From positions 9,413-33,412 of the forward strand of contig JBCCIR010000044.1 in NCBI GenBank assembly GCA_039028175.1: a stretch of 24,000 nucleotides of DNA, read 5' to 3'. Of this stretch, positions 3,213 to 10,893 are shown piece after piece. Under the pieces are notes generated by a model that did not search any database, was not told the origin of the DNA, and saw only the letters and a program-made list of their open reading frames with translations. This DNA is from Verrucomicrobiota bacterium. Its GTDB lineage: Bacteria > Verrucomicrobiota > Verrucomicrobiia > Verrucomicrobiales > DEV007. The translations under genes and the position numbers were made by a program. Each line of letters opens with the position of its first letter. Position 1 is the stretch's first letter.

Positions 3213-3875
3213 TTAGTGCTGGTGCCAAATTCTCCGGCGATGGAGAAGGGCGGCGAGGCCTGCGAGTCCGACCAGCATTGTGCGAGAGGGTTCGGGAATA
3301 ATTGATCCGGTAATGAGGAGGTCGGCTGAGCCGACGAAGTTTCCATCGGGTTCGATGTCGAAGGTGCCTGTCGTTCCATCGGCTTGGAAGCCGTAGAGGC
3401 GGAATTGGGCGGAACTCACACTGGGAGGGCCGAAGAGATTGATGAGTTGGGTTTCGCCCGAGGCTGAGACTGAGTCATCGGTGAAGATGGTGGCGAAGGG
3501 GCCGCCGTTGAAACTAGCTTGGATGGCGATCTCGGAAGGGCCGGTGGGAGACCGGTCGTAACGGATACTCAGTCGGTCGAGATCGTAGGGGGTGGTCGAT
3601 GTGAATCCCCAGGAGAGGAAGTCCTGGTTTATTATGGCGTCGGCGAGGGTGCCGTCGACCGTCCAATTATTTGAATTGAACGAGCTGCCGCTTGCCGAGT
3701 TCAGTCCGGGGCCGCGCGCCAGGTTGTCGCCCGTGACACCTGTGCCTTGGATGGACGGGGGCAGTGAGGTTCCGGCGGCAGAATCATAAGCGAGGATGTT
3801 GGCGGCCTGCGTGTCCGTGGCGAAGGCGGCCATCAGGAGTGATCCGGAGACGATAGCGGTGAGAAGAGAGCGCAT
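3213..3875 (-). CDS. PEP-CTERM sorting-domain secreted protein
   Basis: 220-aa ORF. The signal peptide is MRSLLTAIVSGSLLMAAFATDTQA. The C-terminus IPEPSRTMLVGLAGLAALLHRRR is the PEP motif, a TM helix and a basic cluster, as in the PEP-CTERM/exosortase sorting signal. The body is Ser/Gly/Thr-rich. Confidence 0.85.
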   Translation of the reverse strand: MRSLLTAIVSGSLLMAAFATDTQAANILAYDSAAGTSLPPSIQGTGVTGDNLARGPGLNSASGSSFNSNNWTVDGTLADAIINQDFLSWGFTSTTPYDLDRLSIRYDRSPTGPSEIAIQASFNGGPFATIFTDDSVSASGETQLINLFGPPSVSSAQFRLYGFQADGTTGTFDIEPDGNFVGSADLLITGSIIPEPSRTMLVGLAGLAALLHRRRIWHQH

Positions 3876-4142: not shown

Positions 4143-4391
4143 CTATCTGTTGAGAAGGGAGGCGATAATCTCACCCGTTGCGGCGATTAGGACCGGGGGT
4201 AGCAGGGCCAAGTAGCCGAACTCTACAGGAGTCACCACTTTTCTGACGAGTGCCGCGACGGAGACGAGTGCGAAGAAAAGGAGAATAGGAGCCACCAAGT
4301 TAAACGAAACGGGCGACCCTGTTATGCTCTGGATGGCCAACACTATGCCGTAGCCCCAAAACGGCGTACACCATGTGATTTTTTTGATCAT
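4143..4391 (-). CDS. Small (82 aa) three-helix membrane protein, hypothetical
   Basis: MIKKITWCTPFWGYGIVLAIQSITGSPVSFNLVAPILLFFALVSVAALVRKVVTPVEFGYLALLPPVLIAATGEIIASLLNR. The ATG start is followed by hydrophobic segments. It lies in a low-skew, lower-GC islet. I recognise no family. Confidence 0.55.
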   Translation of the reverse strand: MIKKITWCTPFWGYGIVLAIQSITGSPVSFNLVAPILLFFALVSVAALVRKVVTPVEFGYLALLPPVLIAATGEIIASLLNR

Positions 4392-4425
4392 AGGATCGTA
4401 AGAATACTATGCCATGAAGCAATTT

Positions 4426-4704
4426 TTACCCCGCGAATCTACGAGCTAGTGTCGCAATGACAACGACTACTATCCACGCCGCCGTCATTGGATAGAGACC
4501 CTTCACAACAAACTCTGCAATTGAGATTCTTCGTGAGATGACGAGAGCCATTGCGGGAACGGCAGTGAGGGGGAAGCAGGCAGTCACGACAGAGCCGAAG
4601 GCGGATTCCCCACAGACAGCCCAGACGATTCCTACGATGAAGGGGGCGGCCCACATGGGCCATGTCCAGTTGCGTTCCCAGAAAGTTTGGGTTCCTTGCG
4701 ACAT
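4426..4704 (-). CDS. Small (92 aa) three-helix membrane protein, hypothetical. Possible diverged paralogue of the 82-aa protein.
   Basis: MSQGTQTFWERNWTWPMWAAPFIVGIVWAVCGES...ALVISRRISIAEFVVKGLYPMTAAWIVVVVIATLARRFAG. It shares W-x2-P-x-W, G/F, ALV and EF landmarks with the 82-aa protein at a constant 6-7 residue offset. Confidence 0.55.
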   Translation of the reverse strand: MSQGTQTFWERNWTWPMWAAPFIVGIVWAVCGESAFGSVVTACFPLTAVPAMALVISRRISIAEFVVKGLYPMTAAWIVVVVIATLARRFAG

Positions 4705-4749
4705 TCTCGGGTCATTTGAGGGTGTTTTGCGCTGCTGTCGTTTTCGAAT

Positions 4750-5103
4750 CTAACCCAGCTTTGTTTTCTCATCATTCGGATGATGGATGGAATCTTGATT
4801 TAGAATTTCCCGAAGTCCGAGATAGGCAAGCAGTGTCCCTATTGGAAATTGGAAGGCGGCCACGACGAGTAGGGCTATTCCTAAGGCTTTCCCGGGTTTT
4901 GAATTCAAATTTAGGGAAGCCAAAATTTGAACTGCTCCCAAACCGCCAATGAGGAAAAAAAACCAGATTAGCTGAGAAGGGAGGTATTTGAAACTCGAGG
5001 CTAGACCCAACGCCAAAGCCGCGCCTCCTCCGATGATTTGCAAAATGCCCAGAGCCATCAGGACGCCTTTGGCAGTCGGATACGGGTCAGGATTCTGTTG
5101 CAC
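4750..5103 (-). CDS. Small membrane protein (117 aa from GTG 5103, or about 102 aa from ATG 5058), hypothetical
   Basis: The hydrophobic Gly/Ala/Leu-rich helices are LMALGILQIIGGGAALALGLASSF, LIWFFFLIGGLGAVQILASL and ALGIALLVVAAFQFPIGTLLAYLGL. The GTG at 5103 is only 8 nt from the stop of the upstream REC-AlbA_2 gene. The start codon is uncertain. Confidence 0.5.
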   Translation of the reverse strand: MQQNPDPYPTAKGVLMALGILQIIGGGAALALGLASSFKYLPSQLIWFFFLIGGLGAVQILASLNLNSKPGKALGIALLVVAAFQFPIGTLLAYLGLREILNQDSIHHPNDEKTKLG

Positions 5104-5111
5104 GAGATGGG

Positions 5112-6032
5112 CTACTTAGGGATGCGTTGATTGATGTAGGCGAGGACTTCTGAGGGGGTGAGTTGTTGGGTGCCGTTGCCGGCTCGGATGTAGAAGATTT
5201 CGTCGTTTTCGCGACGGAAGAACACGGGTTCTTTGGAGGGGCGGCATTGGATGGCGAGGATGCGTTTGCCGTCGAGATCGAGGACGTCCGAGCGGATGAA
5301 GGGGGCGAATTCGACGCCGACATGTTTTTTGAAGAGCGCGTTCCAGTGGAGGAGGAGTTTGTCTTCGTTGGCGAACTGGTCTTTATCGAGGCCGAGGGCG
5401 ACGCCTTCGTCATCGACGCCGACGAGTAGTGTTCCACCGCGGCTATTGAGGTATGCGGCGACGGTTTTGAGGCAGCTGTTCTCCATGCGTTTGTCGGATT
5501 TGTCGGTATGGAGATTCCAGCGGAGGGTGGATTTGAATTCGACGCGATCGGTTTCGCCGCCGGCGACGAGGGATTGAATGTCGGATTCCGAGAGGTCGGG
5601 GAGGTCTTCAGTGGTTTGGTCTTTGAGCTGGGCGTTCTCGTCCTTGAGGGTCATGAGGCGGTGGTAGCTGTCGAGGTGGGTGCGGACGCGGGCGACGACT
5701 TCTTCGAACTGGAAGGGTTTCTCGATGTAATCGGCGGCGCCGAGGTTGAGGCCTTTGATCTTGTCTTCGGTGTGGCCGCGGGCGGAGAGGAACACGATCA
5801 CGGCGTCGGCGGTTTGGTCGTCGGCTTTGAGGCGGCGACAGGTTTCGTATCCGTCGATGCCGGGCATGTTGATATCGAGGAGGATGAGTTGGGGCCGGGT
5901 TTCCTTGGCGATGTCGAGGGCTTCTTCCCCGGACTGGGCGACGAGGAGTTCGTATCCTTCCGCGGCGAGGGCTTCGGAGAGGACCTGGAGGTTGGTGAGG
6001 GTATCGTCGACGAGGAGGACGCGGTCGGGCAT
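5112..6032 (-). CDS. Response regulator with an N-terminal receiver domain and a C-terminal AlbA_2 (Schlafen-like, 'divergent AAA/putative DNA-binding', PF04326-like) domain
   Basis: REC: VLLVDD, LILLDINMPG (Asp53), FLSARG, EKPF. After a linker of about 30 aa comes SESDIQSLVAGGETDRVEFKSTLRWNL...LKTVAAYLNSRGGTLLVGVDDEGVALGL...ILAIQCRPSKEPVFFRRENDEIFYIRAGNGTQQLTPSEVLAYI. As I recall it, this follows the AlbA_2 pattern: E..EfK at the start, N..GG.l.iGV.d.G, p.y...... fyiR.G..t..l. No HTH or other output domain is visible. Confidence 0.8.
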   Translation of the reverse strand: MPDRVLLVDDTLTNLQVLSEALAAEGYELLVAQSGEEALDIAKETRPQLILLDINMPGIDGYETCRRLKADDQTADAVIVFLSARGHTEDKIKGLNLGAADYIEKPFQFEEVVARVRTHLDSYHRLMTLKDENAQLKDQTTEDLPDLSESDIQSLVAGGETDRVEFKSTLRWNLHTDKSDKRMENSCLKTVAAYLNSRGGTLLVGVDDEGVALGLDKDQFANEDKLLLHWNALFKKHVGVEFAPFIRSDVLDLDGKRILAIQCRPSKEPVFFRRENDEIFYIRAGNGTQQLTPSEVLAYINQRIPK

Positions 6033-6043
6033 GGCGGGCAGAG

Positions 6044-9000
6044 TTAGAGGGACTCGAGTTTATCGGCGAGGGCATCGAGGCCTTTGAAATCGAAGGCGCG
6101 AACGAGGTTGCCGATCGATTCACCGGCGGGTTTGGTGGCGGGATCGGCGGCGAGTTCTTCGGCGATGGATTTGAGAGCGGTGAGGTTCTTGATTTTGAGA
6201 GCGGCGCGGAATTTTTCGAGGGCGGCGGCGGGGATGGCGGTTAGTTCGGCGCTGCCTCCGCTTTGGGATTCGTCTTCGGAAGCGGGTGTGTTTTCGATGC
6301 GGGTGGAGTCGAACGTGGCGCCGATGTGTTTTTTGAGGAGGGCGACAAGTTCTTCCATGCGGAAGGGCTTGCCGAGAAACCCATCGAAGCCGGCGGCGAT
6401 GGCTTTTTCGCGGAACTCGGGGAAGACGCTGGCGGTGACGGCGAGGACGATGTGGTGTTTGAGTTCGTCATCGGCGCGGATGGCCTTGATGGCTTCGATG
6501 CCGTTCATGCGCGGCATACGAACATCCATGAGAACGATGGCGATTTTGTCGTTATTGGCGCGGAGGGTGTCGACGGCGGTATCTCCGTCGTCAGCGAGGA
6601 GGATATCGAAGCCGGCGCCGGTGAGCATTTGGTTGAGGATATCGCGATTGGCTTCGCGATCGTCGGCGACGAGGATGGTGAATTCCTGACCGGGAGCGAG
6701 GGCGTGGTGAGCGGCTTCAGAATCACCTTCGGTTTCGTTCCAGGCGAGGTCTTTCTTGTTGGCTTCTTCGAGGGGGAGAGTGACGGTGAAGGTGCTGCCT
6801 TTGCCTTTTTCGCTGGCGACTTCGAGGGTTCCGTCGAGGACTTCGGCGAGGCGTTTGGTGATGGAGAGTCCGAGGCCGGTGCCGCCGGCGGCTTTTCCGG
6901 CTTCGACTTGTTTGAAGGGATCGAAGATTTGTTCGAGTTCGTGCGGGGTCATTCCGACGCCGCTGTCGACGACATCGAAGCGGAGGCTCCCTTTGGGTTT
7001 TTCGGCGACGCGGAGGGTGACTTCTCCATCGTCGGTGAACTTGACGGCGTTGCCGAGGAGGTTGACGAGGATTTGGCGAATCTTTGGCGCATCGGAGACG
7101 ATGCCTTGAGGGACTTCGGGGGATACATCGACGTTGAAATCGACGCCTTTATTGGTGGCGCGTTGTTGGACGACATCGCCGACGCTTTTGATGAGTTTGT
7201 GGAGGTCGCAGGGGGCGAGATCGACATCGATGCGACCGGCTTCGATTTTCGAAAGGTCGAGGACGTCGTTGATGAGGGCGAGGAGATGATCGCCGCAGTT
7301 GACGATGGCGTCGAGGCTGGTTTTCTGGCCGGTGGTGATATCGGAATCGCGTTGGAGGATTTGGGAGTAGCCGAGGATGCCATTGAGGGGGGTGCGGAGT
7401 TCGTGACTCATGTGGGAGAGGAACTCGCTTTTGGCGCGATTGGCGGCATCGGCGTTTTCGCGGGCGACCTCGAGTTCTTCGGACAGTTTTTTCGCTTCGG
7501 TGATATCGATGATGACACCGTCGAGGTGGTCGACTGAGCCGTCGTCGCGGAAGGCGGCGCGCCCGCGCTCGCCAACCCAGCGGATCTCGCCGTCAGCGCG
7601 GACGATACGGTATTGGATATCCCATGGTTCCTTTTTATTGACGGCGGCGTCGACCTCATCGACAACCTGCTGGCTATCTTCGGTGCTGATAACGCTATCG
7701 TAGGTGCGGACCGCGTTATCGATGAATTCTGTGGCGGGGTATCCGGTGATTTCGCGGACGTTCTCGCTGATAAACTGCATGGTCCAATCGTCGTCGTTCA
7801 GGCAGCGGTAGACGGTGCCGGGAAGGTTGGCGACGAGGGTGCGGAAGCGTTCCTCTTTCTTGATGATTTCCGCGCCGATTTCTTTTTGCTTGGTGATGTC
7901 TTCCTCAATGGCGACGAAGTGGGTGGTGTTTCCGTCGTCGTCGCGGATGGGGGAAAGGGCGGCGGAGACCCAGAAGATGGAGCCGTCTTTTTTGCGGTTG
8001 CAGAATTCGCCGTGCCATTCGCGACCGTCGGTGAGAGTGTTCCAGACCTCGTCGTAGAGGGCGGGTTCCTGGAGGCCGGACTTGAGGATTCGTGGGGTTT
8101 GGCCGATCGCTTCGTCGGGGGTGTATCCGGTGACTTCTGTGAAGCGCGGGTTTACGTATTCGATATCGCCGTCGGGATCCGTGATGAAGACGATGGCGGT
8201 GCCTTGTTCGATGGCTTGGTTGAGTTTTCGGAGGCTGGCTTCGGCCTCTTTGCGTTCGCTGATATCGCGAATGGCGGCGACGGCCATGGTGGTGCCGGCT
8301 TCGTGGAATGGGCTGAGGCCGATTTCGATGGGGAACTCGCTGCCGTCTTTTCGTTTTCCGTGCAGTTCGAGATCGGCACCCATGGAGCGGGTGCGGGGTG
8401 CCGCGAAATATTCGTTCAGGTGGGCCCCGTGGCCGCTGCGAAAGTCCTCGGGCATGAGGTCTTCGACCGTCATCTTGGCGATTTCTTCCCGGGAGTAGCC
8501 GAAAATTTGCGAGACTTGATCATTGGAGCGGCTGATGGCTCCCTTGGAATCGACGATGATCATGGCGTCGGGCGCGGATTCGAGGAGATCGGAGAGGGTG
8601 GTTTCGCGGGCGGTTTCGAGTTTTGCTTCGCGGTCGGCGACCTTGCGTTGCATGGTGGCGAAGGCGCCGGCGAGTTCTTGGATTTCATCGTGGGTGCGGA
8701 TGTCGTCGAGGGGGACATCTTCGGCGCCGTCGGCGATTTGGAGGACTTTGCCGCGCAGGTTGGTGATGGGGCGGGCGACGCGGCCGGAGCTGAGGTAGAT
8801 GGTGGCGATCGTGAGGATCAGGGCCATGGCGAAGGCGCTGCCGAAGATGCCTTTTCGTTCGTGGAAGTCGGCCATGAGCTCCGCGGAATCGGCGGTGATG
8901 AAGAAGGTCCAGCCGGTAGAAGGGATGGGGGCGTGGGCGATGAAGACCTGGTCGAGGCCCATGAAGTTATCGAGGAGAATGACGCCGGTGGAGCCATTGA

Positions 9001-9778
9001 GCATTTCGTAGGCTTGATCTCTGAGGTGAGGGGTGCCTTCGACGTCGAGGGCGTCATCGATAGTGGCGTGCATGGTTTCGTCTTCGTAGGGGGAGTAGAC
9101 GAATTGTCCATTGGGGGCGATGATGAAGAAGACGTGACCTTCGGCGATGGTGTCGCCGATTTCCTGTTGGAGGGTTTCGAGATCGATATCGACGGTGGTG
9201 ACGCCCCAGAAGTTGTCGTGGCGGGTGAAGGGGACGGAATAGGTGGTCATGATGATGTTTCCGGCGCCTTCATCGAAGTACGGGGCGGTCCAGATGCCCT
9301 TTCCTTCGTTCTTGGGGCGGTGCCACCATTCGGTCGTTTCGTCGCCATACCAGTCGTAGGCTTCTTCATCGATATTCATTTCTATGTAGCCTCTGCCTTT
9401 TTCTTTGTCGCGATAGACGTAGGGGCTGAAGAGGCCTTCGACGTCTCTGTAGGTGCCGGGTTCGAAGGCCATGGCGGCGCCATAGACACGGTCGTTCATG
9501 GAGACATTGGATTTGAGCAGGCCGTAGATTTGCGACTCTTGAAGATTGGGAACGCGTTGAATGAAGCGGGCGGTGGTATCGGCGACGCGGGCGGGTTTGG
9601 AGATATATTCGTCGAAGCGGGCGGCGGCGATTTTTGCCATGTGTTCCATTTGGCGTTCGCCGGTTTCGACGACCTGGTGTTTGGCGAATTTTAGGACCCA
9701 GATGAGCGCGGCGGTGTAGATGGCCACGGTGGGGAGGCCGATGAAGAGGATCATTTTGCCGCGGATGGGGAGGCGCAT
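6044..9778 (-). CDS. Hybrid sensor histidine kinase (TM, Cache-like periplasmic domain, TM, HAMP, 3x PAS, HisKA, HATPase_c, REC, then a His-less C-terminal tail)
   Basis: 1244 aa.
- TM1: ILFIGLPTVAIYTAALIWVLKF.
- Periplasmic region with Cache-type blocks: YGAAMAFEPG, GIWTAPYFDEGAGNIIMTTYSVPF, GVTTVDIDL.
- TM2: IFGSAFAMALILTIATIYLSS, followed by a HAMP domain.
- Three PAS/PAC modules: APDAMIIVD..., TAIVFITDPDGDIEYVNPRF..., LPGTVYRC...DIQYRIVRADGEIRWV.
- H-box SHELRTPLNGILGY (His792).
- N/G boxes: LVNLLGNAVKFT, DSGVGM, GGTGLGLSI.
- Receiver: ILVADD...IVLMDVRMP (Asp1085)...GKPF. Confidence 0.95.
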   Translation of the reverse strand: MRLPIRGKMILFIGLPTVAIYTAALIWVLKFAKHQVVETGERQMEHMAKIAAARFDEYISKPARVADTTARFIQRVPNLQESQIYGLLKSNVSMNDRVYGAAMAFEPGTYRDVEGLFSPYVYRDKEKGRGYIEMNIDEEAYDWYGDETTEWWHRPKNEGKGIWTAPYFDEGAGNIIMTTYSVPFTRHDNFWGVTTVDIDLETLQQEIGDTIAEGHVFFIIAPNGQFVYSPYEDETMHATIDDALDVEGTPHLRDQAYEMLNGSTGVILLDNFMGLDQVFIAHAPIPSTGWTFFITADSAELMADFHERKGIFGSAFAMALILTIATIYLSSGRVARPITNLRGKVLQIADGAEDVPLDDIRTHDEIQELAGAFATMQRKVADREAKLETARETTLSDLLESAPDAMIIVDSKGAISRSNDQVSQIFGYSREEIAKMTVEDLMPEDFRSGHGAHLNEYFAAPRTRSMGADLELHGKRKDGSEFPIEIGLSPFHEAGTTMAVAAIRDISERKEAEASLRKLNQAIEQGTAIVFITDPDGDIEYVNPRFTEVTGYTPDEAIGQTPRILKSGLQEPALYDEVWNTLTDGREWHGEFCNRKKDGSIFWVSAALSPIRDDDGNTTHFVAIEEDITKQKEIGAEIIKKEERFRTLVANLPGTVYRCLNDDDWTMQFISENVREITGYPATEFIDNAVRTYDSVISTEDSQQVVDEVDAAVNKKEPWDIQYRIVRADGEIRWVGERGRAAFRDDGSVDHLDGVIIDITEAKKLSEELEVARENADAANRAKSEFLSHMSHELRTPLNGILGYSQILQRDSDITTGQKTSLDAIVNCGDHLLALINDVLDLSKIEAGRIDVDLAPCDLHKLIKSVGDVVQQRATNKGVDFNVDVSPEVPQGIVSDAPKIRQILVNLLGNAVKFTDDGEVTLRVAEKPKGSLRFDVVDSGVGMTPHELEQIFDPFKQVEAGKAAGGTGLGLSITKRLAEVLDGTLEVASEKGKGSTFTVTLPLEEANKKDLAWNETEGDSEAAHHALAPGQEFTILVADDREANRDILNQMLTGAGFDILLADDGDTAVDTLRANNDKIAIVLMDVRMPRMNGIEAIKAIRADDELKHHIVLAVTASVFPEFREKAIAAGFDGFLGKPFRMEELVALLKKHIGATFDSTRIENTPASEDESQSGGSAELTAIPAAALEKFRAALKIKNLTALKSIAEELAADPATKPAGESIGNLVRAFDFKGLDALADKLESL

Positions 9779-9781
9779 ATC

Positions 9782-9834
9782 AGAGGTCGGAGGTCAGGAG
9801 TCAGAGGTCGGAGGTCGGAGGTCGGAGGTCAGGA
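9782..9834. repeat. Tandem heptamer repeat, 7.5 copies of RGAGGTC (+ strand). It fills the entire spacer between the cyclase stop and the kinase start.
   Basis: agaggtc ggaggtc aggagtc agaggtc ggaggtc ggaggtc ggaggtc agga. The kinase ATG is at 9778-9776 and the cyclase TGA is at 9831-9829. In mRNA (minus) sense it reads UCCU(GACCUCC)n...GACCUCUGAUAUG. Confidence 0.9.
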
Positions 9835-10893
9835 TTTTTTGTTGAGGAGGAAGTAGGTTTCCATGGGGCCTTTGCCTTTGATTTCGACGGGGCCTCGAGA
9901 TTCGAAGTCGAATTTTCCGTCGAGGAGGGCTTTGGTATCGGCGGAGATGTGGATGCGATTTTTTTCTCCGGAGGATTCCATGCGGCTGGCGGTATTTACG
10001 GTGTCGCCCCAAAGGTCGTAGGCGAATTTTTTCTCGCCGATGACGCCGGCGACGACGGGGCCGCTGTGGATGCCGATGCGGAGGCCGACTTCGGGTTGGC
10101 CGGATTGGTTGAGCGAGGGGATTTCGTTGATGAGATCGAGGGCGAAGGAGGCGACGGCGGCGGCGTGATCGGGGACGGGATCGGGGACGCCGCCGGCGAG
10201 CATGTAGGCATCGCCGATGGTTTTGATTTTCTCCAGGTGATGTTTTGCGGCGAGTTGATCCATCATGGAGAACATGTCGTTGAGGAGCGTGACGACTTCT
10301 CCGGGGTGCAGTTCGGCGGAGAGTGGTGTGAAGCCGACGAGATCGCAGAAGAGGATGGAGGCTTCGGGGATGGCGTCGACGATGTTGCGTTCGCTTTCCT
10401 TGAGGCGATCAGCGATGGATTGGGGGAGGATATTGAGGAGGAGGGCATCGGCCTGTTGGTGCATGCGTTGGACTTCTTCCTTGGCGCGCCGGAGTTCGAG
10501 CTGGGTATTGACGCGGGCGACGACCTCTTCGAACTGGAAGGGTTTGCTGACGTAATCGACCGCACCGAGTTTGAGGCCCTGGACCTTGTCCTGGACGGAG
10601 TCACGAGCGGAGAGGAAGATGACGACAATTTCTTTTGTTTCGGGGTTGGCTTTGAGTTTTTCGCAGGTTTCGAAGCCGTCCATACCGGGCATGTTGATAT
10701 CGAGGAGGATGAGGGCGGGTTGGGCTTCTCCGGCGATCTCGAGGGCTTCGGCGCCGGACATGGCGATGAGGAGTTCGTAGCCTTGTTCCTCGAGGGCTTG
10801 GTAGAGGACCTGGAGGTTGGTGGGGTTGTCGTCGACGAGGAGGACCTGATTATTCAGGGTCGATTGGTCGGCGCTGGGAAGAGGCGTGGTCAT
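9829..10893 (-). CDS. Response regulator fused to a class III adenylate (nucleotidyl) cyclase domain
   Basis: 354 aa. REC: VLLVDD, LILLDINMPG (Asp65), FLSARD, SKPF. Cyclase domain: ASILFCDLVGFTPLS and KIKTIGDAYMLAGG (the two metal Asp residues plus the purine-selecting Lys), GIHSGPVVAGVIG, FAYDLWGDTVNTASRMES (the adenine-selecting Asp plus the transition-state Asn/Arg). Confidence 0.9.
   Translation of the reverse strand: MTTPLPSADQSTLNNQVLLVDDNPTNLQVLYQALEEQGYELLIAMSGAEALEIAGEAQPALILLDINMPGMDGFETCEKLKANPETKEIVVIFLSARDSVQDKVQGLKLGAVDYVSKPFQFEEVVARVNTQLELRRAKEEVQRMHQQADALLLNILPQSIADRLKESERNIVDAIPEASILFCDLVGFTPLSAELHPGEVVTLLNDMFSMMDQLAAKHHLEKIKTIGDAYMLAGGVPDPVPDHAAAVASFALDLINEIPSLNQSGQPEVGLRIGIHSGPVVAGVIGEKKFAYDLWGDTVNTASRMESSGEKNRIHISADTKALLDGKFDFESRGPVEIKGKGPMETYFLLNKKS

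What the first reader, a model, noticed from the sequence alone, without database searches (positions are those of the whole stretch)
4143..10893. Candidate undescribed signalling-effector module: one Cache/PAS hybrid kinase, two paralogous receivers with cAMP and AlbA_2 (Schlafen-like) outputs, and three small membrane proteins at the operon tail
Six co-directional minus-strand genes are tightly packed. They are REC-cyclase, a 50-nt spacer, the 1244-aa hybrid kinase, an 11-nt spacer, REC-AlbA_2, an 8-nt spacer (if GTG 5103 is the start), and then three membrane proteins of 82-117 aa.

The two stand-alone receivers are close paralogues of each other. My manual alignment gives about two-thirds identity over about 118 aa. 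Identical blocks are TNLQVL, LILLDINMPG, FLSAR and KPFQFEEVVARV, and the DNA shares ttcgaactggaagggtt at 5703-5719 and 10527-10543. Neither resembles the kinase's own receiver. This points to a duplicated receiver that lets one sensor drive two different outputs.

One output is a cyclase with the canonical ATP-selecting Lys/Asp pair. The other is an AlbA_2 domain with no recognisable partner domain.

I cannot name a described system that pairs a REC-gated nucleotide cyclase with a REC-gated Schlafen-like domain followed by small polytopic membrane proteins. A functional link to the membrane proteins is speculation. They could be effectors, anchors, or unrelated cargo inserted at the operon end.
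Basis: partly seen in the sequence, partly recalled or inferred. Interest (0 to 1): 0.7.

Follow-up and report, generated by a model that had tools for sequence, protein, structure and literature searches.

The report
Kinase operon driving cAMP and Schlafen-like outputs
A bacterial sensor kinase gene sits between two sister response-regulator genes, one making cAMP and one carrying an intact Schlafen-type RNA-cutting domain, and this three-gene set recurs in other bacteria, whereas the three small membrane genes behind it are unrelated strain-specific filler.

Summary
The ORFs, spacers and domain calls are real. They are REC–class III adenylate cyclase (9829-10893), a dCache–HAMP–3×PAS–HisKA–HATPase–REC hybrid kinase (6044-9778) and REC–AlbA_2 (5112-6032). 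The two stand-alone receivers are 65% identical to each other but only about 29% identical to the kinase's own receiver.

Comparative genomics cuts the proposed six-gene module to three genes.
- A kinase lies directly upstream of REC–AlbA_2 in 16 of 18 related loci.
- The REC–cyclase lies upstream of that kinase in 5 of 10 other informative loci.
- The three small hydrophobic ORFs have no homologue anywhere, are missing from an 89%-identical relative, and lack the host's extreme codon-position-3 strand bias.

The AlbA_2 domain keeps the Schlafen catalytic motif Ex4ExK plus Asp (E160/E165/K167/D208) in all 89 relatives examined. Its nearest non-REC relatives are C-terminal domains on DUF262, BrxL, HsdR and cNMP-binding proteins.

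Best reading: a branched two-component system in which one periplasmic-ligand sensor switches on cAMP synthesis and a phosphorylation-gated Schlafen-type ribonuclease.

I found no description of a receiver-fused Schlafen. I rate it a new variant of known kinds. The kinase lacks an HPt domain and carries a conserved, unannotated C-terminal tail.

The parts
9829..10893 (-). Response regulator with a class III adenylate cyclase output (354 aa). REC is aa 17-128, a helical transducer segment is aa ~130-164, and the cyclase is aa 176-350.
   Evidence: Pfam gives Response_reg 1.1e-30, Guanylate_cyc 1.9e-64 and a weak HNOBA hit on aa 130-164. Alignment to AC5 C1/C2 shows both metal Asp residues, the Lys/Asp adenine pair and Asn/Arg in one chain. 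Orthologues sit directly upstream of the kinase in L001, L124, L167, L169 and L170.
9783..9830 (.). Heptamer tandem repeat (GAGGTCG, 6.9 copies) that fills the cyclase-kinase spacer.
   Evidence: Tandem Repeats Finder score 73; sequence read. The 89% relative has a shorter, degenerate version. Its function is unknown.
6044..9778 (-). Hybrid sensor histidine kinase (1244 aa): N-terminal TM segment, periplasmic dCache, HAMP, three PAS, HisKA, HATPase_c and REC. It has no HPt domain.
   Evidence: Pfam. The NCBIfam best hits (TorS, BarA, ArcB, LuxQ) are all far below their cut-offs. An orthologous kinase lies directly upstream of REC-AlbA_2 in 16 of 18 related loci.
6047..6262 (-). Conserved C-terminal tail of the kinase (aa ~1173-1244). 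It is helical, has no His, and carries the motif ..ALKIKNLTAI..IA.EL..DP......I..L...FDF.GL.
   Evidence: Aligned in 13 kinases. It has no Pfam or PDB sequence match. hhalign gives 91% probability (E 9.4e-7) against the post-HPt tail of the other kinase type paired with REC-AlbA_2, and 1% against true HPt. It also sits at the C-terminus of kinases upstream of same-type receivers with PP2C, cyclase, GGDEF or HisKA outputs.
5112..6032 (-). Response regulator with a Schlafen-like AlbA_2 output (306 aa). REC is aa 5-117, a long helix is aa 109-140, and AlbA_2 is aa ~149-303.
   Evidence: Pfam. The AF2 model has pLDDT 89.4. The AlbA_2-only model (pLDDT 86.9) matches DIP2311, the SAMD9 AlbA_2 domain and SLFN14/13/5/12/11. 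There are more than 120 clusters of full-length homologues at 54-100% identity in several phyla.
5532..5555 (-). Codons for E160-T-D-R-V-E165-F-K167, the Schlafen Ex4ExK catalytic motif. Its partner D208 is encoded at 5407-5409.
   Evidence: These residues are invariant in 19 diverse homologues and in 51 REC-fused plus 38 otherwise-fused relatives. The motif definition comes from PMC13056530. It aligns to the SLFN14/SLFN8 C-lobe 'ES.HVEFK ... GVDD'.
4143..5103 (-). Three small hydrophobic ORFan ORFs (4750-5103, 4426-4704, 4143-4391) in a compositionally distinct, strain-specific stretch. They are NOT part of the module.
   Evidence: They have no family hits and no homologues. Synteny with L001 ends at window 5109. 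Their GC3 and G3/C3 skew are unlike the host's, and local GC drops to 0.51.

Best explanation
The real unit is a three-gene, branched two-component operon.

Proposed mechanism.
1. The membrane kinase senses a small periplasmic ligand through its dCache domain, and probably cytoplasmic cues through three PAS domains.
2. It autophosphorylates on the HisKA histidine.
3. It passes the phosphoryl group to two stand-alone response regulators. Their receivers are old paralogues that share the same helix-1 surface.
4. Each receiver is joined to its output by a long helix. Phosphorylation is proposed to drive receiver dimerisation.
5. In one regulator this assembles the obligate-dimer class III cyclase, which makes cAMP.
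6. In the other it brings two single-lobe Schlafen/AlbA_2 domains together into an active, metal-dependent ribonuclease. Its most likely substrate is tRNA, so translation would be throttled.
7. The kinase's own receiver would act as an internal phosphate sink or timer, because no HPt domain is present.
8. The conserved C-terminal tail may dock this receiver type.
9. The three small membrane ORFs downstream are unrelated, recently acquired or spurious sequence.

Shown here by computation: the architecture, the conserved catalytic residues of all three proteins, the synteny, the paralogy, the absence of HPt, and the exclusion of the TM ORFs.

Inferred: the shared phosphodonor, activation by dimerisation, RNase activity and its substrate, and the role of the tail.
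For: - Domains.
- Receiver phospho-acceptor residues D9, D10, D53 and K105 are invariant, and the β4 Ser/Thr (S83) is S or T, in 19 homologues.
- Receiver identities: 65% between the two stand-alone receivers against 29% to the kinase receiver.
- Across six trios the cyclase receivers are 80-97% identical to each other. AlbA_2 receivers are 62-93% identical to each other. Cyclase and AlbA_2 receivers are 62-76% identical to each other. The kinase receiver is 26-36% identical to either. Helix 1 reads 'TNLQVL' in both stand-alone types and 'ANRDIL' in the kinase receiver.
- Conserved order with gaps of 50 nt or less, including 4- and 14-nt overlaps: L124, L165, L167-L170, L173.
- Kinase directly upstream in 16 of 18 related loci; cyclase in 5 of 10 other informative loci.
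- Cyclase catalytic residues are intact.
- The Schlafen Ex4ExK motif plus D208 is invariant in 89 relatives. The motif and tRNase activity are described in PMC13056530.
- The AlbA_2 domain is 43-54% identical to C-terminal domains fused to GmrSD_N/DUF262, BrxL, HsdR and cNMP_binding. The DUF262-Slfn architecture was shown to defend against phage.
- Fold matches to SLFN and SAMD9 nuclease domains.
- Single-lobe prokaryotic Schlafen domains need dimerisation to rebuild the two-lobed nuclease. SLFN11 and Cash also act as dimers.
- Kinases with the same tail pair with same-type receivers whose outputs are all enzymes: PP2C, cyclase, GGDEF, HisKA.
- TM ORFs excluded.
Against: - There is no experimental data for any member.
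- A hybrid kinase normally needs an HPt to reach a terminal regulator. None is found in the kinase or among the window ORFs I scanned. The phosphotransfer route is therefore unresolved. The other REC-AlbA_2 clade does use a kinase with a true Hpt.
- Half of the related loci lack the cyclase, so the two outputs need not be functionally coupled.
- Two related REC-AlbA_2 genes are orphans (L126, L172).
- AlbA_2 domains can bind nucleic acid without cutting. In the cited study only 2 of 7 tested bacterial Schlafens showed a phenotype.
- The inter-domain arrangement in the AF2 model is uncertain (pTM 0.54).
- Co-transcription is inferred from spacing only. The promoter and terminator scan was uninformative.
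Confidence: 0.6

Rival explanations
1. REC-AlbA_2 is a non-catalytic nucleic-acid-binding regulator. Phosphorylation makes the AlbA_2 domain bind DNA or RNA and change gene expression, as in most response regulators, and no cleavage occurs.
For: Most response regulators are transcription factors (general knowledge). Top fold hits include the 'SAMD9 DBD with DNA' structure and DIP2311, a protein of the AlbA_2-GHKL-wHTH type usually annotated as a regulator. SLFN5 is described as binding DNA/RNA.
Against: The three acidic catalytic residues and the Lys are invariant in all 89 relatives, including those fused to defence proteins. A pure binding domain would not need them. Kinases with the same tail pair with receivers whose outputs are all enzymatic. 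No HTH or other DNA-reading domain is present.
Confidence: 0.2
2. The trio is an anti-phage, abortive-infection system. The kinase senses infection or a danger signal, cAMP acts as an alarm, and the Schlafen RNase kills or arrests the cell.
For: Bacterial Schlafens defend against phage by tRNA cleavage. The AlbA_2 domain is 43-54% identical to those on DUF262, BrxL and HsdR proteins. The cyclase gives a PADLOC PycC hit (E 1e-16). cNMP_binding-AlbA_2 fusions exist (L145, L133). Two relatives sit near mobile or defence-type genes (L164 integrase/primase; L166 DruA, BrnT/A).
Against: The window flanks are housekeeping or envelope genes (DegP-like, DUF4136, PEP-CTERM, DUF2092, UbiB, OprD, AI-2E) with no defence hits. 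Most relatives also sit among metabolic genes. The sensor is a periplasmic dCache domain, typical of small-molecule sensing. The PycC hit is generic class III homology, and the cyclase has purine (ATP) specificity residues. REC-AlbA_2 has no cNMP-binding domain.
Confidence: 0.12
3. One reading: a six-gene module in which the three small membrane proteins are effectors or anchors of the signalling system.
For: They are co-directional, with short spacers of 8 (or 53), 45 and 34 nt. The products are hydrophobic, with 2-3 predicted membrane segments each. No terminator-like site lies on the minus strand between them and the AlbA_2 gene.
Against: There are no homologues in billions of proteins. They are absent from the 89% relative, where synteny stops at the AlbA_2 stop codon, and from all 170 loci. 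Their composition is foreign or non-coding-like. The gene downstream of REC-AlbA_2 differs in the other loci examined.
Confidence: 0.03
4. The cyclase regulator is only a neighbour. It is served by another kinase, or the hybrid kinase feeds only its own receiver and an unlinked HPt relay.
For: Half of the related loci lack the cyclase. The hybrid kinase has no HPt. This receiver subfamily is very common and promiscuous in its outputs.
Against: The cyclase always takes the same position, directly upstream and on the same strand, in six loci spanning 57-100% identity. Its receiver is the closest paralogue of the AlbA_2 receiver and shares helix 1. All six cyclase-bearing loci have the same dCache kinase type.
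Confidence: 0.1

Closest known systems
Prokaryotic Schlafen (pSlfn) defence nucleases, e.g. DUF262-Slfn EcoSlfn7 and Ig-like-Slfn RorSlfn5 (PMC13056530)
   Same: The AlbA_2/Schlafen domain carries an intact Ex4ExK motif. It is 43-54% identical to domains fused to DUF262, BrxL and HsdR. It follows the same logic of a constant effector fused to a variable input domain.
   Different: The input is a phospho-receiver fed by a membrane kinase, not a phage-protein sensor. The gene sits in a two-component operon among housekeeping genes, not in a defence island. A REC fusion is not among the architectures named in the paper's main text. Its supplementary list could not be read.
Cash (Csx15-Schlafen), the cA4-activated tRNase of type III CRISPR (PMC13462974)
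   Same: A Schlafen nuclease is held inactive and switched on by a signalling input that changes its oligomeric state.
   Different: Cash is switched by binding of a cyclic oligoadenylate and by filament formation. Here the proposed switch is Asp phosphorylation of a fused receiver. No CRISPR context is present.
Branched two-component pathways with an enzymatic regulator, e.g. Caulobacter DivJ/PleC acting on DivK and PleD (own knowledge; PleD is the best NCBIfam and fold hit for both receivers)
   Same: One kinase feeds two regulators, and one of them makes a nucleotide second messenger through a dimerisation-dependent cyclase.
   Different: The messenger is cAMP from a class III cyclase, not c-di-GMP. 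The second branch carries a Schlafen-like domain instead of a single-domain receiver. The two receivers are close paralogues encoded on either side of the kinase gene.
Unorthodox or hybrid kinases such as TorS, BarA and ArcB
   Same: The core order is HisKA-HATPase-REC. These are the best NCBIfam hits.
   Different: All scores are far below the family cut-offs (for example 365 against 676 for TorS). There is no HPt domain. A distinct, conserved 65-aa tail follows the receiver.
Pycsar (cyclase plus cNMP-activated effector)
   Same: A class III-type cyclase is encoded near a potentially toxic effector. PADLOC gives a PycC hit at E 1e-16. cNMP_binding-AlbA_2 fusions exist elsewhere.
   Different: The effector here has no cNMP-binding domain. 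The cyclase is REC-gated and has the ATP-specifying Lys/Asp pair. Both proteins look like parallel outputs, not a cyclase-to-effector chain.

Membership tests
Two-component response regulator (REC), both stand-alone proteins | Receiver fold with the acidic pair, the phospho-acceptor Asp, the β4 Ser/Thr and the β5 Lys | tested here: met
   Pfam Response_reg gives 100.8 and 106.5 bits against a cut-off of 30.2. D9, D10, D53 and K105 are invariant and S83 is Ser or Thr in 19 homologues. Fold hits to PleD, Spo0F, RR468 and others have rmsd about 1 Å.
Two-component response regulator (REC) | A cognate histidine kinase encoded next to it | tested here: met
   The kinase lies directly upstream on the same strand in 16 of 18 related loci.
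Schlafen / AlbA_2 nuclease domain (pSlfn) | PF04326 match above the gathering score | tested here: met
   77.4 bits against 25.3, covering profile positions 1-117 of 118.
Schlafen / AlbA_2 nuclease domain (pSlfn) | Catalytic Ex4(E/D)xK motif plus the downstream Asp | tested here: met
   E160, E165, K167 and D208 are invariant in 19 and 89 relatives. They align to the SLFN14/SLFN8 C-lobe. Motif definition from PMC13056530.
Schlafen / AlbA_2 nuclease domain (pSlfn) | Fold similarity to solved Schlafen C-lobes | tested here: met
   Foldseek probability is 1.00 to SLFN14, SLFN13, SLFN5, SLFN12, SLFN11, the SAMD9 AlbA_2 domain and DIP2311. TM-scores are only 0.45-0.58 on the query.
Schlafen / AlbA_2 nuclease domain (pSlfn) | Metal-dependent RNA (tRNA) cleavage | not testable with these tools
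   This needs biochemistry.
Anti-phage defence system (pSlfn as defined by defence-island context) | Located within about 10 kb of known defence genes | tested here: not met
   PADLOC gives only generic REC or cyclase hits for the module proteins. Flanking window genes are housekeeping or envelope genes by Pfam. Most related loci are the same.
Class III adenylate cyclase | PF00211 match with two metal Asp residues, substrate Lys/Asp and transition-state Asn/Arg | tested here: met
   217 bits against 21.9. Residues seen in the alignment to AC5 C1/C2 are FCDLVGFT, KTIGDAYM and YDLWGDTVNTASR. Best bacterial structural relatives by sequence are chains deposited as 'Adenylate cyclase' (7yz9, 4p2f, 5o5k).
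Hybrid/unorthodox phosphorelay kinase (TorS/BarA/ArcB type) | HisKA + HATPase_c + REC | tested here: met
   Pfam scores are 78.1, 100.2 and 85.4 bits.
Hybrid/unorthodox phosphorelay kinase (TorS/BarA/ArcB type) | An HPt domain to pass the phosphoryl group on to the terminal regulator | tested here: not met
   Pfam finds no Hpt. The C-terminal tail has no His, no Pfam or PDB match and 1% hhalign probability to true Hpt domains. The other REC-AlbA_2 clade does have Hpt.
Pycsar-like cyclase/effector pair | The effector carries a cyclic-nucleotide-binding domain | tested here: not met
   REC-AlbA_2 contains only Response_reg and SLFN_AlbA_2.
   tblastn finds them only in the window's own copy, L003, among 170 loci. 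No homologues at all.

The most novel reading that the evidence does not exclude
Bacteria in several phyla may use a Schlafen ribonuclease as an ordinary two-component output. An extracellular chemical cue read by a dCache kinase would trigger phosphorylation-dependent dimerisation of REC-Schlafen and cleavage of tRNA or other RNA. This would be a reversible translation brake outside classical immunity. In one lineage it is wired in parallel with a cAMP burst through a duplicated receiver. The kinase would reach both regulators without an HPt, using a dedicated C-terminal docking tail. A bolder form is that the cue is a danger signal from lysed kin, which would make this a receptor-mediated, pre-emptive anti-phage response.
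Probability: 0.3. Interest if true: 0.75.

Novelty: new variant of a known kind. Interest (0 to 1): 0.58.

Why it matters
Bacterial Schlafens were shown only in 2025-2026 to be tRNA-cutting immune effectors fused to phage sensors. A widespread, highly conserved version shows that the same effector has been plugged into classical environmental signalling. This version is fused to a phospho-receiver and encoded next to a membrane sensor kinase, among housekeeping genes.

If it is an active nuclease, it would add an RNA-cleaving output to response regulators. It would also give a tractable model for how dimerisation switches a single-lobe Schlafen on: one Asp, BeF3-, and a defined kinase.

The duplicated-receiver trio offers a clean natural case of one sensor driving two chemically different outputs. 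The HPt-less hybrid kinase with a conserved tail raises a testable question about how such kinases reach their partners.

Tried and rejected
1. The genome-contig scan with the full-length alignment was swamped by receiver-only matches. Only L004 covered the AlbA_2 part. I reused those loci as a control set for the kinase tail.
2. Foldseek with the full-length model returned only receiver structures. I repeated it with an AlbA_2-only model.
3. I tested whether the kinase tail is a degenerate HPt and rejected it. It has no His, no Pfam or PDB match, and 1% hhalign probability to true Hpt, but 91% to a tail that follows a true Hpt in other kinases.
4. Homologue searches for all three TM ORFs found nothing but self.
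5. I looked for tRNA or ncRNA genes, or flanking repeats, that might mark an insertion site at the TM island. There are no tRNAs, no Rfam hits and only chance-level repeats.
6. The sigma-70 promoter and intrinsic terminator scan gave counts equal to the shuffled expectation. All terminator-like hits were on the plus strand, so it says nothing about co-transcription.
7. The supplementary tables of the bacterial Schlafen paper and its preprint, which list all 55 architectures, are not held. I cannot rule out that a REC fusion is catalogued there.
8. The small ORFs downstream of REC-AlbA_2 in L169 are unrelated to the window's TM ORFs. From its sequence the first looks to me like the N-terminal piece of a broken transporter gene, which I did not test.

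Full report
**What is in the sequence**

The spacers are 50, 11, 8, 45 and 34 nt.

Pfam gives the following:
- First protein: Response_reg plus Guanylate_cyc (E 1.9e-64).
- 1244-aa kinase: dCache_1/MCP-like_PDC_1, HAMP, three PAS, HisKA, HATPase_c and Response_reg.
- Third protein: Response_reg plus SLFN_AlbA_2 (77.4 bits against a cut-off of 25.3).
- Three small ORFs: nothing. NCBIfam and PADLOC also find nothing.

The two stand-alone receivers are 65% identical over 119 aa. Each is about 29% identical to the kinase's receiver. No shuffle of the window reached two matches.

The cyclase aligns to both halves of mammalian AC5. It carries both metal Asp residues, the adenine-specifying Lys/Asp pair and Asn/Arg in one chain. 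It therefore looks like a homodimeric, ATP-using class III enzyme.

The window is from a Verrucomicrobiota MAG.

**The small membrane ORFs are not part of the unit**

- In an 89%-identical relative (L001), nucleotide synteny covers the cyclase, kinase and REC–AlbA_2 genes and stops at the AlbA_2 stop codon (window 5109). Downstream lie an unrelated ORF and an IS200-type transposase.
- tblastn finds the three ORFs only in the window's own copy among 170 loci.
- TM1 and TM3 have no homologue but themselves in 5.8 billion proteins. TM2 has none in 1.84 billion representatives.
- In the gene calls I saw, TM1 was called from an internal ATG and TM3 was called, while TM2 was not.
- This genome has an extreme strand bias at third codon positions. 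G3/C3 skew is -0.61 to -0.79 in minus-strand genes and +0.24 to +0.75 in plus-strand genes. The three ORFs lack it (-0.02 to -0.20) and have lower GC3 (local GC 0.51).

They are recently acquired or spurious sequence in a variable spot.

**The three-gene core recurs**

REC–AlbA_2 is a large, well-conserved family. The 120 best clusters are 54-100% identical over the full length. They come from Verrucomicrobiota, Pirellulaceae, Lentisphaeria and Gammaproteobacteria.

I mapped domains on 43 metagenome loci and 13 loci fetched by exact protein look-up.

In the clade closest to the window:
- An orthologous kinase, or its C-terminal end at a contig edge, lies directly upstream on the same strand in 16 of 18 loci. 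The exceptions are L126 and L172.
- Among loci with enough upstream sequence, the REC–cyclase sits directly upstream of the kinase in five of ten besides the window (L001, L124, L167, L169, L170).
- It is absent in L121, L164, L168, L171 and L173.
- Gaps are 50 nt or less, and some genes overlap by 4 nt (L169) or 14 nt (L165).
- All cyclase-bearing loci have the dCache kinase.
- The gene downstream of REC–AlbA_2 differs in the loci examined.

The invariant unit is kinase + REC–AlbA_2. The cyclase is a facultative but recurrent third member.

**The receiver duplication is old and maintained**

Across six trios the identities are as follows:

| Comparison | Identity |
|---|---|
| Cyclase receivers with each other | 80-97% |
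| AlbA_2 receivers with each other | 62-93% |
| Cyclase receivers with AlbA_2 receivers | 62-76% |
| Kinase receiver with either | 26-36% |

Both stand-alone types share helix 1 ('TNLQVL'). The kinase receiver has 'ANRDIL' there. From established knowledge of two-component specificity, helix 1 is the main partner-recognition surface. This fits a shared phosphodonor, but it is an inference.

**What the AlbA_2 domain is**

- A profile of the domain hits the nuclease C-lobe of SLFN14, SLFN8, SLFN12, SLFN5 and SLFN11.
- An AlphaFold model of the domain alone (pLDDT 86.9) matches DIP2311, the SAMD9 AlbA_2 domain and the Schlafens. TM-scores are modest.
- The sequence G-E160-TDRV-E165-F-K167 is the Ex4ExK motif that defines the Schlafen active site (PMC13056530).
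- That motif, with D208, is invariant in 51 REC-fused and 38 otherwise-fused relatives.
- The nearest non-REC relatives (43-54% identity) all carry the domain at the C-terminus of larger proteins. These are GmrSD_N/DUF262, BrxL, a type I restriction R subunit, cNMP_binding, and several unannotated N-terminal regions.
- The DUF262–Schlafen architecture has been shown to protect E. coli from phage. Bacterial Schlafens cleave tRNA.
- Recent structures show that single-lobe prokaryotic Schlafen domains must pair up to rebuild the two-lobed nuclease.
- The full-length model (pLDDT 89.4) has a long helix (aa 109-140) running out of the receiver. The cyclase paralogue has its transducer helix at the same place.

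I therefore propose that phosphorylation-driven receiver dimerisation is the common switch for both outputs.

**Context argues against a classical defence island**

The module's neighbours in the window are housekeeping or envelope genes with no defence hits. They are a DegP-like protease, DUF4136, a PEP-CTERM protein, DUF2092, UbiB, an OprD porin, an AI-2E transporter and a cupredoxin protein. Most related loci are similar. Two sit near mobile or defence-type genes.

**The kinase**

It has no HPt domain, so the route from a hybrid kinase to stand-alone regulators is open.

Its last ~70 residues form a conserved helical tail without His. The tail has no Pfam or PDB match. In the second REC–AlbA_2 clade the kinase is HAMP–HisKA–HATPase–REC–REC–Hpt followed by a homologous tail. 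hhalign gives 91% probability (E 9.4e-7) between the two tails and 1% against true Hpt.

The tail also ends kinases that sit directly upstream of regulators with the same receiver type but PP2C/SpoIIE, cyclase, GGDEF or HisKA outputs. It occurs as a small stand-alone ORF upstream of REC–AlbA_2 in L119 and L122. A docking role for this receiver type is a reasonable guess, nothing more.

**Literature**

Full-text searches found no description of a receiver- or response-regulator-fused Schlafen/AlbA_2. None of the recent bacterial Schlafen, BREX, SAMD9 or SLFN-pAgo papers mentions one in its main text. The catalogue of 55 architectures is in a supplementary table I could not read.

**Verdict**

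The finding is real but smaller than proposed. It is a three-gene branched two-component operon, not six genes.

The cyclase and kinase are ordinary in kind. The REC–Schlafen regulator, its tight pairing with a tail-bearing kinase, and the duplicated-receiver wiring to cAMP are undescribed variants of known parts.

- Confidence in the architecture and in excluding the TM ORFs is high.
- Confidence that the AlbA_2 output is an active, phosphorylation-gated RNase is moderate.
- A defence role is possible but not favoured.

Noticed in passing
whole window 1-24000; also L001 and L167: There is extreme strand compositional asymmetry. Window GC skew is +0.32. Third-codon-position G/C skew is +0.24 to +0.75 in plus-strand genes and -0.61 to -0.79 in minus-strand genes. 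This creates very long spurious antisense ORFs (for example 7613-9694, 693 aa). Relatives L001 (-0.25, reversed) and L167 (+0.22) share it; eleven other loci have |skew| of 0.08 or less.
   Followed up: partly
window 9783-9830: A heptamer tandem repeat (GAGGTCG, 6.9 copies) makes up essentially the whole cyclase-kinase intergenic spacer. The 89% relative has a shorter, degenerate version (L001 6198-6228).
   Followed up: partly
window 6047-6262 (kinase aa ~1173-1244); L117, L112, L113, L107, L120; L005, L007, L008, L017, L036, L041; L119 4458-4844; L122 2248-2565: A conserved ~65-aa His-less helical tail (..NLTAI..IA.EL....FDF.GL..) with no Pfam or PDB match. It sits at the extreme C-terminus of kinases that precede regulators of this receiver subfamily, after a true Hpt in one kinase type. 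It also occurs as a stand-alone small ORF upstream of REC-AlbA_2 in two loci.
   Followed up: partly
L145 515-1411; L133 4111-4836; L146 9359-10495: The same AlbA_2 subfamily is fused to a cyclic-nucleotide-binding domain (L145, L133) and to a region with a weak, sub-threshold ETR1_N-like match (L146). These suggest cNMP- and possibly membrane-gated Schlafen effectors.
   Followed up: no
L167 11542-12837; L169 9944-11269: Two trio loci have possible cAMP-pathway genes nearby. L167 has a PP2C phosphatase with a cNMP-binding domain 2.6 kb downstream. L169 has a metallo-beta-lactamase-fold protein 1 kb downstream with a precomputed Anti-Pycsar_Apyc1 family hit, so it may be a cyclic-nucleotide phosphodiesterase.
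   Followed up: partly
L115 4158-6191: Two REC-AlbA_2 genes are arranged divergently next to one hybrid kinase.
   Followed up: no
L139 6923-10468; L147, L159, L163: Schlafen/AlbA_2 domains sit at the C-terminus of a type I restriction R subunit and of BrxL (BREX Lon-like) proteins. One of these retains the Lon protease domain.
   Followed up: no
window 3213-3875 (-): A 220-aa secreted protein ends in a PEP-CTERM-like sorting signal (..IPEPS..LLHRRR). It has no Pfam match and lies next to the variable TM-ORF stretch.
   Followed up: no
L170 4281-7988: The orthologous kinase is split into three consecutive called genes (dCache-HAMP-PAS / PAS / HisKA-HATPase-REC). This is either frameshifts or assembly errors in that MAG.
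   Followed up: no
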